A stretch of DNA of 1,024 bases from a phage: the sequence record AM157367.1; one strand, 5' to 3'. Under the pieces are notes generated by a model, which worked only from the letters and a program-made list of their open reading frames with translations, was not told where the DNA came from and made no database searches. Below, piece after piece: positions 1-1,024 of this stretch. Every line of letters begins with the position of its first letter. Positions within the stretch are counted from its first letter, which is position 1. The position numbers and the translations under genes were made by a program.

Positions 1-66
1 AAAAAATTCACGTATCCGGTCGCTGATGAGTGGCCGGGATTCTCAACAGTAATGGAGTGGACATGA
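1..66 (+). CDS. 3' end of an upstream ORF (partial; C-terminus ...KKFTYPVADEWPGFSTVMEWT*)
   Basis: Frame 1 is open from the window edge to TGA at 64-66, which overlaps the ATG at 63-65 of the next gene (ATGA), a classic translational-coupling junction. The other two + frames are also open from the edge (stops at 24-26 and 50-52), so the frame assignment is tentative. Too short to assign function. Confidence 0.35.
   Translation, partial: KKFTYPVADEWPGFSTVMEWT
53..56 (+). promoter_or_regulatory. Shine-Dalgarno (GGAG) for ORF1
   Basis: GGAG lies 6 nt upstream of ATG 63 (9 nt upstream of the adjacent in-frame ATG 66). This favours ATG 63/66 over the GTG at 30 used in the ORF track. Confidence 0.5.
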
Positions 67-518
67 TGGCAAAAATTCACGAGGTAAAGCTGCACGCAAA
101 ATATTTCGACCTTGTGCTGGAAGGAAAGAAACGCGCAGAGTTTCGGAAAAATGACCGTAATTATGAGCGCGGGGACACGTTGATTTCGCATGAATGGGGG
201 CAGGGTGTGTATACGGGGCGAAAGGTTGAAGCCCGGATAACAGATGTTACTGACCTGTCAGACTGGCTGGAAGACTATGTCTTGCTAAGTATTGAGCTGC
301 TTAGTACAGGCGCATATGAGATTGTGAACTGGAAAGAACTTAGTGAGCGTGGCCTGGTATTCAGAATTAATCATGAAATTATGCATCAGCTCGGCCTTGC
401 TGTTATGTATGAACCAGAGACGGGGATGTCTGGCGGGGCAATGGTTGCCACGGATGGAGCATGGAACTATTCAGATGAACAGATGGAGCGTGCACAGCAA
501 AACGGGTGGCTTGGATAA
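63..518 (+). CDS. ASCH-like / DUF3850-family domain protein with uncharacterised C-terminal extension (151 aa from ATG 63)
   Basis: Long ORF ending at TAA 516-518. N-terminal ~80 aa (MMAKIHEVKLHAKYFDLVLEGKKRAEFRKNDRNYERGDTLISHEWGQGVYTGRKVEARITDV...YVLLSIELL) fits my recollection of the DUF3850/ASCH-like pattern (H-E-hK-h-x-YF...G-K-x-x-E-h-R-K-N-D-R-x-a-x-x-G-D-x-L...YTGR). SD at 53-56 and ATGA overlap with the upstream ORF. Start could equally be ATG 66 or, less likely, GTG 30. Family assignment is from memory, not a search. Confidence 0.8.
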   Translation: MMAKIHEVKLHAKYFDLVLEGKKRAEFRKNDRNYERGDTLISHEWGQGVYTGRKVEARITDVTDLSDWLEDYVLLSIELLSTGAYEIVNWKELSERGLVFRINHEIMHQLGLAVMYEPETGMSGGAMVATDGAWNYSDEQMERAQQNGWLG

Positions 519-721
519 TGCACAGAATACCAGGCGAGATACCGCACCATAAAACTAAAAATATCAAGCTGATGGCTATTGTTCAGCGTTTACAGCGGAT
601 TATGGTCAACGAAAATCTGACGCCCGATGAGCTAGTCGGGTGTGCCGAAATAGTCCGGGATAATTACGGGCGGTTTAACCATATCGGTCAATCAAGAGTT
701 ACGCCACCACCACGCAGATGA
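518..721 (+). CDS. small basic hypothetical protein (67 aa; MHRIPGEIPHHKTKNIKLMAIVQRLQRIMVNENLTPDELVGCAEIVRDNYGRFNHIGQSRVTPPPRR)
   Basis: ATG 518-520 overlaps the TAA stop of ORF1 (TAATG). A weak SD-like GGTGG at 505-509 lies 8 nt upstream. Stop is TGA 719-721. Net positive charge (about 11 K/R against 6 D/E). Alternative starts are GTG 506 and ATG 572; the latter has no SD. No family recognised. Confidence 0.6.
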   Translation: MHRIPGEIPHHKTKNIKLMAIVQRLQRIMVNENLTPDELVGCAEIVRDNYGRFNHIGQSRVTPPPRR

Positions 722-863
722 TAGAGAACGCCCCAGTCGTGAAACTTGTGTTCAGGGCTGGCGGGGTTGAACAACGAGCGTAGCGAGGCGTTAGCTGGTT
801 ATCAGATTGACTCCTGGTATTATTGGCGCATAGCGCGGCCAGTAACCACAATGAAGCCGACTC

Positions 864-892
864 AAACCGGCAACCTGAATGCCGGTTTTTTT
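864..892 (+). terminator. rho-independent (intrinsic) terminator
   Basis: Perfect 9-bp stem AAACCGGCA (864-872) / TGCCGGTTT (880-888) with a 7-nt loop ACCTGAA, followed by a T-run (TTTTTTT, then ATGCGTTTTTT through 903). The T-tract is on the + strand only, so it terminates the + strand operon. Confidence 0.8.
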
Positions 893-928
893 ATGCGTTT
901 TTTCAGTATGTTCTGCCATTTTTAGCTC

Positions 929-959
929 TGCATGCACTACTGCATCGAATCGCATGCAT
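929..959. promoter_or_regulatory. cluster of palindromic GCATGC / TGCAT motifs (candidate operator or protein-binding site)
   Basis: TGCATGCA (929-936, 8-bp palindrome), TGCAT (941-945), GCATGC (952-957) overlapping ATGCAT (954-959). The two GCATGC hexamers are 22 bp apart centre to centre, about two helical turns. Lies just downstream of the terminator in ORF-poor sequence. Function is inferred, not demonstrated. Confidence 0.3.
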
Positions 960-1024
960 TTTCCTTCCCTGTCACGTGTGAGCGCCGCTGGTGCTGGCGC
1001 GCTTCCGGCGTGTTCGTGCATCTG

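What the first reader, a model, noticed from the sequence alone, without database searches (positions are those of the whole stretch)
1..721. Translationally coupled cassette of small genes (ATGA and TAATG junctions)
Both junctions are stop/start overlaps: TGA 64-66 with ATG 63-65, and TAA 516-518 with ATG 518-520. Tight coupling like this usually means the products are needed in fixed stoichiometry, as in toxin-antitoxin pairs, anti-defence modules or phage early-operon accessory genes. The pairing of an ASCH-like (PUA-like fold, putative nucleic-acid-binding) protein with a small basic partner is not a combination I recognise as a characterised system.
Basis: partly seen in the sequence, partly recalled or inferred. 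Interest (0 to 1): 0.55.

Follow-up and report, generated by a model that had tools for sequence, protein, structure and literature searches.

The report
Tail of P2-phage replication operon
The overlapping small genes are the last two accessory genes (orf91 and orf92) of the replication operon of a P2-type prophage of Escherichia: already catalogued, of unknown function and not an obligate pair, although comparison turned up a ClpX link for orf92 and a repeated RNA hairpin next to it.

Summary
ATG 63-65 overlaps TGA 64-66, and TAA 516-518 overlaps ATG 518-520. The first protein is ASCH-like and the second is small and basic (pI 10.4).

The window is the right end of the early (replication) operon of a P2-like prophage:
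- the last 21 codons of replication endonuclease gpA
- orf91 (DUF3850 mini-ASCH plus DUF7415)
- orf92 (67 aa)
- a 72-nt hairpin element
- a terminator
- the cos site, 28 nt past the window

Both ORFs are under purifying selection. Stop/start overlaps link every gene from orf80 to orf91 in P2, so they reflect operon compaction, not a two-gene system.

The pair is separable. Of the 91 loci that carry orf92, 35 lack orf91. P2 itself has a truncated orf91 and no orf92. Both orf91 domains also occur just upstream of gpA. No toxin-antitoxin (TA), defence or anti-defence family matches.

Two unexpected leads:
- Distant orf92 relatives, in the same gpA-to-portal slot, are fused to a ClpX zinc finger.
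- The hairpin element (window 725-798) recurs after each plus-strand gene in the interval between gpA and cos and shows covariation.

The genes themselves are already known; their function is not.

The parts
1..66 (+). 3' end of gene A (replication endonuclease, nicks the origin); last 21 codons, stop TGA 64-66
   Evidence: RefSeq CDS 1-2286 'replication endonuclease' in NZ_CP182142 ends at window position 66. P2 and Wphi have the same layout.
54..57 (+). Shine-Dalgarno GGAG for orf91, 5 nt before ATG 63 and 8 nt before ATG 66
   Evidence: Read from the sequence. Inference only.
63..518 (+). orf91 (151 aa from ATG 63; RefSeq starts at ATG 66): N-terminal DUF3850 mini-ASCH domain plus C-terminal DUF7415; stop TAA 516-518
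   Evidence: Pfam DUF3850 2.2e-16, DUF7415 1.9e-14, ASCH 1.1e-10. phrog_1812 4.5e-81. pN/pS 0.39 against the 52-56% lineage.
75..293 (+). DUF3850 / ASCH (PUA-like) domain of orf91, residues 5-77, with the GxKxxExR motif at LEGKKRAEFR
   Evidence: pLDDT about 90 or more over residues 1-80. Foldseek best match 3IUW: 40% identity, TM 0.94, rmsd 1.1 A.
321..449 (+). DUF7415 domain of orf91 (residues 87-129)
   Evidence: Pfam 54 bits against a cut-off of 27. Model confidence is low, pLDDT 50-64. The same domain also occurs fused to DUF5405 (orf83-like).
504..509 (+). GGGTGG, a weak Shine-Dalgarno-like site 8 nt before the orf92 start, embedded in the conserved Gly-Trp codons of orf91
   Evidence: Conserved in both orf91 lineages. 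That it acts as a ribosome-binding site is inference.
518..721 (+). orf92 (67 aa, pI 10.4): two-helix hairpin core, then a variable linker and a Pro/Arg C-terminal tail; stop TGA 719-721
   Evidence: phrog_11386 8e-39. 179 homologous clusters, among the 120 listed the named ones are all Enterobacterales. pN/pS 0.08-0.13 in frame against more than 1 in the other two frames. AF2 helices 10-31 and 36-59, core pLDDT 90-96.
725..798 (+). One copy of a roughly 72-nt repeated structured element (a 16-bp hairpin plus a small second hairpin) that starts 3 nt after the orf92 stop; similarity between phages ends right after its GTTAG
   Evidence: Covariance model R1: 75 bits, E 1e-16. 187 copies in 162 of 171 loci, all on the + strand. 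93.7% of cells paired and 9 pairs with compensatory changes. Plus-strand fold -31.5 kcal/mol (z -2.8) against -17 (z -0.4) for the minus strand. No Rfam match.
864..895 (+). Intrinsic-terminator-like hairpin (stem 864-888) followed by a T-run; probable end of the early transcript in this prophage
   Evidence: Consensus scan: 9 pairs, 5 of them G-C, tail TTTTATGCGT.
799..1024 (.). Short cos-proximal spacer, meaning the cargo hotspot is nearly empty here; cos (GGCGAGGCGGGGAAAGCAC) lies 28 nt beyond the window end
   Evidence: Exact cos match at L001 3273-3291, which corresponds to window 1053-1071, identical to the annotated cosR of P2. Segment 800-1024 is found in only 20 of 5426 E. coli genomes. 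The portal gene Q follows.
792..956 (-). 54-aa 'hypothetical protein' annotated in RefSeq relatives; probably not a gene
   Evidence: Annotated in NZ_CP182142. It overlaps the terminator hairpin. The only Pfam hit on the longer 76-aa frame is sub-threshold (E 0.009).

Best explanation
**Shown.** The window is the distal end of the early (replication) operon of a P2-like (Peduovirus) prophage of Escherichia. In order it holds the gpA C-terminus, orf91, orf92, a 72-nt structured element and an intrinsic terminator, with cos just beyond the window. The cargo hotspot between the early operon and the portal gene is almost empty in this prophage.

- orf91 and orf92 are real protein-coding genes.
- They are dispensable in some relatives: phage P2 carries only a truncated orf91, with no DUF7415 domain, and no orf92.
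- They are read from the long early mRNA, and their starts overlap the preceding stops, as do all genes from orf80 onward.

**Inferred.** The overlaps give translational coupling that lets weakly initiating accessory cistrons ride on translation of gene A. They are an operon-wide economy, not the mark of a two-component system, and the two genes are independent modules.

- **orf91.** Its two domains (a mini-ASCH nucleic-acid-binding domain and DUF7415) are found on either side of gene A in different phages. It is therefore most likely an accessory factor of gpA-dependent rolling-circle replication, or of its RNA/ssDNA intermediates.
- **orf92.** It is a helical-hairpin protein with a flexible linker and a Pro/Arg C-terminal peptide. 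Distant relatives in the same genomic slot carry a ClpX zinc-binding domain instead of that tail. It therefore most likely acts on or through the host ClpX(P) machine, as an adaptor-like, decoy or self-limiting factor, during the early phase.
For: **Identity of the locus**
- 97-98% nucleotide identity to Peduovirus genomes and E. coli prophages.
- Annotations of gpA, orf91, orf92 and the portal gene.
- cos 28 nt past the window.

**Both ORFs code for protein**
- orf92 pN/pS is 0.08-0.13 in frame and above 1 out of frame.
- orf91 pN/pS is 0.39 with synonymous sites saturated.

**Overlaps are operon-wide**
- P2 coordinates for orf80 through orf91; Wphi coordinates.

**The two genes are separable**
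- 56 loci have gpA-orf91-orf92. 35 loci have orf92 alone, preceded by GAGGG-N6-ATG and lying after tumA/tumB(DinI) or after cargo genes.
- P2 has a truncated orf91 without orf92.

**orf91 domains flank gene A**
- DUF3850 homologues (42-43% identity), and in one locus a DUF7415 homologue, end where gpA begins.
- DUF5405+DUF7415 proteins of 157 aa exist.
- ASCH fold: TM 0.94 to 3IUW.

**The ClpX link for orf92**
- Six family members (E 2e-11 to 2e-5 against 1.84 billion proteins), plus one in a Pectobacterium prophage, carry PF06689 above its cut-off.
- Their zinc finger aligns with E. coli ClpX 2DS5 at 6.6e-16.
- They sit between gpA and Q and never co-occur with a short orf92.
Against: - No experiment or expression data were available.
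- The window's own orf92 has no zinc finger, so the ClpX link rests on domain-fusion logic only.
- The P88-type zinc-finger proteins are not detectably homologous to orf92 in their N-terminal half.
- The orf92 model found no structural neighbour and no PDB relative.
- The DUF7415 model has low confidence.
- The orf91/orf92 overlap is kept in two diverged lineages with different junction sequences. That could mean a real functional tie between the two proteins.
- Only about 56% of family members end in a PPxRR-like tail.
Confidence: 0.8

Rival explanations
1. orf91 and orf92 form a dedicated two-protein system (toxin-antitoxin, defence or anti-defence) whose fixed stoichiometry is set by the overlap.
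For: - The two genes are adjacent and overlapping in 56 of 91 orf92 loci.
- They are also adjacent and overlapping in 18 of 22 loci of a lineage whose orf91 is only about 54% identical, with a different overlap (ATGA in place of TAATG).
- They form an acidic/basic pair, pI 5.1 and 10.4.
- They sit at the edge of a known defence hotspot.
Against: - No significant PADLOC match and no NCBIfam match, and no toxin or antitoxin domain.
- orf92 stands alone in 35 loci.
- P2 lacks orf92 and has only half of orf91.
- No convincing promoter of their own: the scan found only two weak 9-of-12 sites in total, one of them with its -10 hexamer over the orf92 start.
- Both orf91 domains occur elsewhere, next to gpA and without orf92.
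- Overlaps are general in the operon.
Confidence: 0.1
2. orf92 is not a protein gene. Its conservation reflects an RNA or DNA element at the hotspot boundary, and the ORF is incidental.
For: - A conserved structured element lies directly downstream.
- The 3' end of orf92 survives in loci where its core is deleted.
- Some records do not annotate orf92 at all.
Against: - pN/pS is 0.08-0.13 over codons 1-50 in the annotated frame, against 1.1-1.8 in the other two frames.
- Synonymous variation occurs within the conserved PPPRR tail codons (alignment).
- A confident two-helix model.
- Homologues down to about 30% identity keep the same motif.
Confidence: 0.03
3. orf91 (an RNA-binding ASCH protein), orf92 and the 72-nt hairpin work together as one unit. 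For example, the proteins bind or process the hairpin to set the 3' end or stability of the early mRNA.
For: - The element starts 3 nt after the orf92 stop in nearly every locus.
- ASCH domains are predicted RNA binders. PHROG 986 is labelled 'RNA-binding protein'.
- The structure is specific to the plus strand, with many G.U pairs.
Against: - The element also follows tumB and an unrelated membrane-protein gene.
- It is present in 517 E. coli genomes, against 363 that have orf92.
- It occurs in phages without orf91.
- There is no evidence of binding.
Confidence: 0.05

Closest known systems
Bacteriophage P2 Orf91 (NP_046796) and phage Wphi gp91/gp92; Salmonella phage PSP3 gp37
   Same: - Same position after gene A, on the same strand.
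- About 95% amino-acid identity in the DUF3850 part.
- orf92 is 75-79% identical to Wphi gp92 and PSP3 gp37.
   Different: - P2 Orf91 is cut to 109 aa (DUF3850 only) by the tin/old cargo, and P2 has no orf92.
- The Wphi record carries frameshifts that split orf91.
- In PSP3 orf92 follows tumA/tumB, not orf91.
- None of these proteins has an assigned function.
ASCH / PUA-like superfamily (e.g. PDB 3IUW from E. faecalis, ZmASCH ribonuclease, E. coli YqfB, human TRIP4 ASCH)
   Same: - Beta-barrel fold: TM 0.94 to 3IUW.
- Pfam ASCH and DUF3850 matches above their cut-offs.
- GxKxxExR motif present (read from the sequence; knowledge of the motif is from memory of Iyer et al. 2006).
   Different: - It is a minimal version of about 80 aa, lacking the extra elements of ZmASCH, YqfB and TRIP4. 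Matches to those are weak, E 5e-3 to 5e-2.
- It is fused to DUF7415.
- No activity is known for any DUF3850 protein.
ClpX N-terminal zinc-binding domain and ClpX adaptors such as SspB
   Same: - Distant orf92-family members carry a ClpX-type C4 zinc finger of about 42 residues that aligns with E. coli ClpX at 6.6e-16.
- The short forms share SspB's general layout: a folded domain, a variable linker and a short conserved C-terminal peptide. The SspB layout is cited from memory.
   Different: - The window's orf92 has no zinc finger.
- Its tail (PPPRR) does not resemble the SspB LRVVK peptide.
- No interaction has been tested.
The P2 'TO' / gpA-gpQ defence hotspot (Rousset et al. 2022, PMC9122126)
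   Same: The window spans the left edge of that hotspot. The paper's tables list 'DUF3850/ASCH + hypothetical', including WP_071337454, the accession RefSeq gives the orf92 CDS in strain CUPF09 (98.6% identical to the window), among the locus contents.
   Different: - Here the hotspot carries no cargo.
- orf91 and orf92 are conserved flank genes, not variable cargo.
- The repeated hairpin element is not mentioned in the texts that could be searched.
REP-type mRNA-stabilising hairpins and integron attC cassette ends (for the 72-nt element)
   Same: - A strand-specific imperfect palindrome placed right after the stop codon of each cassette-like gene.
- Sequence similarity between phages breaks exactly at its 3' end.
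   Different: - It is not dispersed over the genome: 1-3 copies per genome, only in P2-like prophages.
- No U-tract follows it.
- The attC core sites RYYYAAC and GTTRRRY are not matched beyond AAC...GTT.
- P2 has no integron integrase (from memory; not checked with the tools).

Membership tests
P2-like (Peduoviridae) early/replication operon | Gene lies directly downstream of, and on the same strand as, the gpA replication endonuclease | tested here: met
   Window 1-66 is the gpA C-terminus. RefSeq CDS layout; P2 and Wphi layouts.
P2-like (Peduoviridae) early/replication operon | Followed by cos and the portal gene Q on the opposite strand | tested here: met
   Exact 19-nt P2 cos at L001 3273-3291. 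Portal CDS at 3461-4495 on the minus strand.
ASCH superfamily / DUF3850 (PF12961, PF04266) | Profile match above the curated cut-off | tested here: met
   DUF3850 60.2 bits (cut-off 22.9); ASCH 42.6 bits (cut-off 21.2).
ASCH superfamily / DUF3850 (PF12961, PF04266) | PUA-like beta-barrel fold | tested here: met
   AF2 pLDDT about 90 or more for residues 1-80. Foldseek match to 3IUW: E 6e-9, TM 0.94.
ASCH superfamily / DUF3850 (PF12961, PF04266) | N-terminal GxKxxExR motif | tested here: met
   GKKRAEFR at residues 21-28 of the 151-aa protein, read from the translation. The motif definition is recalled from Iyer et al. 2006.
ASCH superfamily / DUF3850 (PF12961, PF04266) | Binding of RNA or modified nucleotides, or hydrolase activity | not testable with these tools
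   Needs biochemistry.
DUF7415 (PF24187) | Profile match above the curated cut-off | tested here: met
   54 bits against a cut-off of 27, residues 87-129.
Type II toxin-antitoxin pair | A recognisable toxin or antitoxin domain in either protein | tested here: not met
   Pfam, NCBIfam and PADLOC give none.
Type II toxin-antitoxin pair | The two genes co-occur as an inseparable unit | tested here: not met
   35 of 91 orf92 loci lack orf91. P2 has orf91 without orf92. 4 of 22 loci of the diverged orf91 lineage have lost the orf92 core.
Type II toxin-antitoxin pair | Own autoregulated promoter upstream of the pair | tested here: inconclusive
   No promoter-like site in 1-66. In total the scan found only two weak 9-of-12 matches on the + strand inside the genes. 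A consensus scan is not proof either way.
Known anti-phage defence systems (PADLOC-DB v2) | Match to a defence-system protein model | tested here: not met
   Only a 0.029 partial hit (20 residues) for orf91 and none for orf92.
ClpX zinc-binding domain proteins (PF06689) | C4 zinc finger CxxC...CxxC | tested here: not met
   The window's orf92 has a single Cys and no PF06689 hit. Distant homologues P0220-P0229 and L012 do have it.
Intrinsic (Rho-independent) terminator, for the 72-nt element at 725-798 | G+C-rich hairpin immediately followed by a U-tract | tested here: not met
   The hairpin is present but is followed by GGGGUUGAACAACG. The scan reports a terminator only at 864-895.
Any Rfam family (release 15), for the 72-nt element | Covariance-model match | tested here: not met
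   No match with E up to 1 anywhere in the window.
Integron attC site, for the 72-nt element | Paired R'' (RYYYAAC) and R' (GTTRRRY) core sites and an IntI integrase | tested here: not met
   Only AAC...GTT pair. GTTGAAC and GTTAGCT do not fit the consensus (read; the consensus is from memory). No IntI is annotated in P2 or PSP3.

The most novel reading that the evidence does not exclude
This reading combines two ideas.

- **orf92.** It is the short form of a class of small proteins, specific to P2-like phages, that act on the host ClpX unfoldase. They could be adaptor-like, decoys or anti-adaptors. Some members have captured the ClpX zinc-binding domain itself. The phage makes them together with its replication proteins.
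- **The 72-nt hairpin.** It closes orf92 and recurs after each plus-strand gene up to cos. It would be a cassette-boundary element, acting as an mRNA 3'-end protector, as a recombination anchor, or both. It would then organise cargo exchange in the P2 defence hotspot.
Probability: 0.2. Interest if true: 0.6.

Novelty: already known. Interest (0 to 1): 0.33.

Why it matters
As reported, the finding is ordinary: it rediscovers the tail of the P2 early operon. Its value is in two places.

**Interpreting the defence hotspot.** The work fixes where the conserved phage backbone ends and the gpA-to-Q defence hotspot begins. Surveys that take everything between gpA and gpQ as 'cargo' will count orf91 and orf92 as part of candidate defence systems.

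**Two cheap, testable leads.**
- The fusion of orf92 relatives to the ClpX zinc-binding domain suggests an undescribed way for a temperate phage to interfere with host proteolysis during replication.
- The covarying hairpin sits after each plus-strand gene in the gpA-to-cos interval. It could explain how cassettes in this hotspot are insulated or swapped.

Tried and rejected
**Searches that returned nothing useful**
- Rfam search of the window: no match.
- NCBIfam and PADLOC: nothing significant.
- Foldseek with the orf92 model: no hits at all.
- PDB profile search with the orf92 alignment: only chance-level hits.
- Literature searches for orf91, DUF3850 and ASCH in prophages: no functional study.
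- The older P2 papers (Odegrip 2006; Christie and Calendar 2016) are not held in the library. I cannot exclude that the hairpin element or orf92 is discussed there.
- The search for related loci with the mixed alignment A6 failed for lack of a conserved stretch.

**Ideas considered and rejected**
- The 21-aa ORF at 718-783: its ATG is not conserved (alignment).
- An internal start for orf92 at Met19, as used in some RefSeq records named 'meiotically up-regulated 80 protein': codons 1-18 show pN/pS 0.13.
- The conserved block after orf92 as part of cos: cos is 255 nt further right, and in other phages cargo genes lie between the two.
- Chimeric proteins (half of Cox plus DUF7415; DUF3850 plus a Baseplate_J fragment or a spike fragment; the gpA N-terminus plus DUF7415) as meaningful architectures: the partner domains are truncated, so these are deletion products in decayed prophages.
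- The P88/D6-type zinc-finger proteins as orf92 homologues: their N-terminal halves do not hit the orf92 profile.
Full report

Yes. Positions 61-70 read acATGAtggc. ATG 63-65 therefore shares three bases with TGA 64-66, and a second in-frame ATG follows at 66-68. Positions 511-520 read ttggaTAATG, so TAA 516-518 shares one base with ATG 518-520. The second ORF stops at TGA 719-721, which matches the reported end of 721.

Frame 1 of bases 1-66 is open and ends in ...KKFTYPVADEWPGFSTVMEWT*. The first full ORF is ASCH-like: Pfam gives DUF3850 at 2.2e-16, ASCH at 1.1e-10 and a second domain, DUF7415, at 1.9e-14. The second ORF encodes 67 residues with pI 10.4, and orf91 has pI 5.1.

**2. What the locus is**

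The window matches P2-like phages (Peduovirus P2, Wphi and the Yersinia 'YpM' phages) and E. coli prophages at 96-98% identity over positions 1 to about 795. Only 5 of 5426 complete E. coli genomes match over the full length.

In strain CUPF09 the annotation reads, in order:
- replication endonuclease (gpA), whose CDS ends at window position 66
- a DUF3850 protein
- a hypothetical protein, WP_071337454
- a doubtful 54-aa ORF on the minus strand
- the portal gene Q and the terminase gene on the minus strand

In P2 itself the gene after A is 'Orf91'. In Wphi the two genes are 'orf91' and 'orf92'. The 19-nt P2 cohesive-end sequence occurs exactly once in the CUPF09 locus. Its position corresponds to window 1053-1071, 28 nt past the window end, and it is identical to the annotated cosR of P2.

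The window is therefore the right end of the early replication operon. It runs into the gpA-gpQ 'hotspot', where P2 carries tin and old and where Rousset et al. 2022 catalogued many defence systems. In this prophage the hotspot is almost empty. About 330 nt separate the orf92 stop from cos. That stretch holds a structured element at 725-798 and a terminator-like hairpin at 864-895. The supplementary tables of that paper list 'DUF3850/ASCH + hypothetical', including WP_071337454, among the locus contents. The gene pair has thus been catalogued but not studied.

**3. Are both ORFs genes?**

Yes.
- Across 53 distinct orf92 sequences, pN/pS is 0.13 for codons 1-18 and 0.076 for codons 19-50. The same nucleotides read in the other two frames give 1.1 and 1.8. 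This supports the TAATG start over the internal Met19 used in some RefSeq records.
- orf91, compared with a lineage 52-56% identical, gives pN/pS 0.38 for DUF3850 and 0.41 for the rest. Synonymous sites are saturated in that comparison.
- AlphaFold2 gives a confident beta-barrel for orf91 residues 1-80, with pLDDT about 90 or more. Its best PDB match is the 80-residue E. faecalis protein 3IUW (40% identity, TM 0.94).
- The DUF7415 half of orf91 is modelled poorly, pLDDT 50-64.
- orf92 is predicted as two helices, 10-31 and 36-59, with core pLDDT 90-96 and disordered ends. It has no structural or PDB sequence neighbour.

**4. Do the overlaps mark a two-gene module?**

The overlaps are conserved. 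All 56 loci with the gpA-orf91-orf92 layout keep the TAATG junction or a near variant. In the diverged orf91 lineage, 18 of 22 loci are followed by orf92 through a different overlap, AAAATGA.

Three observations argue against a dedicated pair.
- **Overlaps are the rule here.** In P2 the coordinates of orf80, orf81, orf82, orf83, A and orf91 overlap by 1, 1, 4, 11 and 4 nt.
- **orf92 stands without orf91 in 35 of 91 loci.** In those loci it has its own GAGGG-N6-ATG site. It follows tumA/tumB (a DinI-like SOS module) as in Salmonella phage PSP3, or it follows cargo genes.
- **orf91 stands without orf92.** Phage P2 has only the DUF3850 part, 109 aa, before tin. Four loci of the diverged lineage have lost the orf92 core.

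The two orf91 domains also behave as modules associated with gene A. In several PSP3-like loci a DUF3850 homologue (42-43% identity) ends where gpA begins, and in one locus a DUF7415 homologue does so. A 157-aa architecture of DUF5405 (orf83-like) plus DUF7415 is also common.

In complete E. coli genomes the three pieces occur in similar numbers: 380, 350 and 363 of 5426. Those copies are close relatives, so they add little independent evidence.

No TA, defence or anti-defence model matches either protein. Both fall in PHROG families of unknown function.

**5. Mechanism**

*Shown:* the gene order, that both ORFs code for protein, the overlaps, and that the two genes are separable.

*Inferred:* the two accessory cistrons are translated by ribosomes coming off gene A and off orf91. 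The site before orf92, GGGTGG, is only weakly Shine-Dalgarno-like. It is locked into the conserved Gly-Trp codons of orf91 in both lineages.

For orf91 I infer an accessory role in gpA-dependent rolling-circle replication, or on its single-stranded or RNA intermediates. The basis is the nucleic-acid-binding fold and the way both of its domains flank gene A.

For orf92 the best lead came from a profile search of 1.84 billion representative proteins.
- The family is tiny, only 32 clusters.
- Six distant members of 101-122 aa keep the core motif RLQxxMxNENITPxELVxCAxxVR and end in a ClpX-type C4 zinc finger. PF06689 matches at 5e-11 to 6e-19, above its cut-off.
- A Pectobacterium P2-like prophage has such a gene right after gpA.
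- In viral contigs the close relatives of these fused proteins lie between gpA and Q and are never accompanied by a short orf92.
- The zinc finger aligns with the E. coli ClpX N-domain (2DS5) at 6.6e-16.

The short forms instead carry a linker of variable length and, in about 56% of clusters, a PPxRR-like C-terminus. Another large group ends in LLPRC. A folded domain, a flexible linker and a terminal peptide is the layout of ClpX adaptors such as SspB, and basic C-termini are one class of ClpX degron. Both statements come from memory.

My working hypothesis is that orf92 acts on or through ClpX(P) in the early phase. I put this at roughly 25%, because it rests on domain-fusion logic alone.

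**6. An element noticed in passing**

Similarity among phages continues about 75 nt past the orf92 stop and ends abruptly after GTTAG. This block is a repeated element. Its consensus is CAAACGCCGCCGGTGCTGAAACTTGCTTTCAGTGCTGGCGGGGTTGAACAACGAGCnnnGCGAGGCGTTAG.

- **Copies.** It has 187 copies in 162 of 171 fetched loci, all on the operon strand, and 25 loci have two copies.
- **Position.** It begins within a few bases of the stop codon of orf92, of tumB, or of a 243-257-aa membrane-protein cargo gene.
- **Structure.** A 16-bp stem is supported by 93.7% paired cells and by 9 pairs with changes on both sides. G.U pairs predominate at two of its positions. None of 500 shuffles reached the observed values, and slid controls paired at 44% or less.
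- **Strand.** The plus strand folds to -31.5 kcal/mol (z -2.8); the consensus folds to -37.9 (z -5.0). The minus strand does not fold convincingly, at -17 (z -0.4).
- **Classification.** It has no U-tract, so it is not a canonical intrinsic terminator. It has no Rfam match.
- **Distribution.** A covariance model finds it only in the gpA-to-cos interval of the complete PSP3 genome: two strong copies and one weak. It finds no copy in P2. In complete E. coli genomes it occurs in 517 genomes at 1-3 copies, and is never annotated.

Its function is unknown. Plausible roles are a protector or processing site for mRNA 3' ends, or a boundary and recombination anchor for hotspot cassettes. The two hotspot papers that could be searched contain none of the words tried for it: 'stem-loop', 'terminator' and 'palindrom' are absent from the 2026 preprint, and the 2022 paper was searched only for the gene terms.

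**7. Verdict**

The genes are already known as annotated ORFs of P2-like phages, and their function remains open. Interest in the finding as stated is low to moderate. The ClpX-domain fusions and the covarying cassette-end hairpin are the parts worth following up.

Noticed in passing
window 725-798 (+); also L093 3782-3855 and 4213-4287; L015 about 4673; L252 29554-29627, 29958-30032, 30544-30599: A roughly 72-nt repeated, plus-strand-specific two-hairpin element follows the stop codon of orf92, tumB and a membrane-protein cargo gene. It has a covarying 16-bp stem. Similarity between phages ends exactly at its GTTAG. It is confined to the gpA-to-cos interval, is absent from P2 and from Rfam, and occurs in 517 of 5426 E. 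coli genomes.
   Followed up: yes
P0220, P0222, P0223, P0224, P0227, P0229; L012 3980-4306; L172-L179 about 4001-4366: Distant members of the orf92 family are fused to a ClpX-type C4 zinc finger. The finger aligns with the E. coli ClpX N-domain at 6.6e-16 (about two-thirds of the 42 aligned residues identical, by eye). These genes sit in the same gpA-to-portal slot of P2-like prophages and never occur together with a short orf92.
   Followed up: yes
window 799-1024 and L001 2941-3461: The defence/cargo hotspot of this prophage is essentially empty. The orf92 stop is only about 330 nt from cos (L001 3273-3291, 28 nt past the window end). The segment 800-1024 is rare, found in 20 of 5426 E. coli genomes.
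   Followed up: yes
L070-L072, L077, L079, L084, L086 at about 271-522; L083 358-519: In PSP3-like phages that lack orf91 after gene A, a DUF3850 homologue (42-43% identity) or a DUF7415-containing gene sits immediately upstream of gene A. A DUF5405+DUF7415 architecture (P0192, 157 aa) is common. Both orf91 domains therefore travel with gene A.
   Followed up: partly
window 716-721: The window's orf92 ends one codon early (AGA TGA) compared with most relatives (AGA CGA TAG). Its tail is therefore PPPRR, not PPPRRR.
   Followed up: partly
L002 (Wphi) 5063-5578; P0127, P0129, P0136: Several records carry frameshifted orf91. In Wphi, extra bases split it into a 93-aa 'orf91' and a shifted 'gp92'. 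Some E. coli proteins read on into the +1 frame. These are either sequencing errors or decaying genes.
   Followed up: partly
L007 4270-4437: A Buttiauxella prophage has a partial duplicate of the 3' end of gene A (...GITPQRWELEVLSCGAVVSYAGK...) just after orf92. This suggests a past recombination or insertion at the end of gene A.
   Followed up: no
L159, L160, L162, L165 about 3462-3566: In four loci of the diverged lineage the orf92 core is replaced or deleted. The first codons (MSHRRP), the PPPRRR tail and the hairpin element remain.
   Followed up: partly
P0137, P0161, P0162, P0134: These are chimeric proteins with truncated partner domains: half of Cox plus DUF7415, the gpA N-terminus plus DUF7415, DUF3850 plus a Baseplate_J fragment, and DUF3850 plus a spike fragment. 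They look like large internal deletions in decayed P2-like prophages.
   Followed up: partly
H1, H2, H4, H5, H10 and others (match at record position 2221-3245): Several 'complete' E. coli chromosome records start exactly at the first base of the prophage gene A. The assemblies were probably rotated to a 'replication' gene that is not dnaA.
   Followed up: no
P0088, P0093, H114; H165-H171: Misleading database names. N-terminally truncated orf92 is called 'meiotically up-regulated 80 protein'. The small ClpX-zinc-finger proteins of phages P88 and D6 are called 'carboxylate-amine ligase'.
   Followed up: no
window 792-956 (-): The RefSeq 54-aa 'hypothetical protein' on the minus strand overlaps the terminator hairpin and has no family match. 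It is probably an over-prediction.
   Followed up: partly
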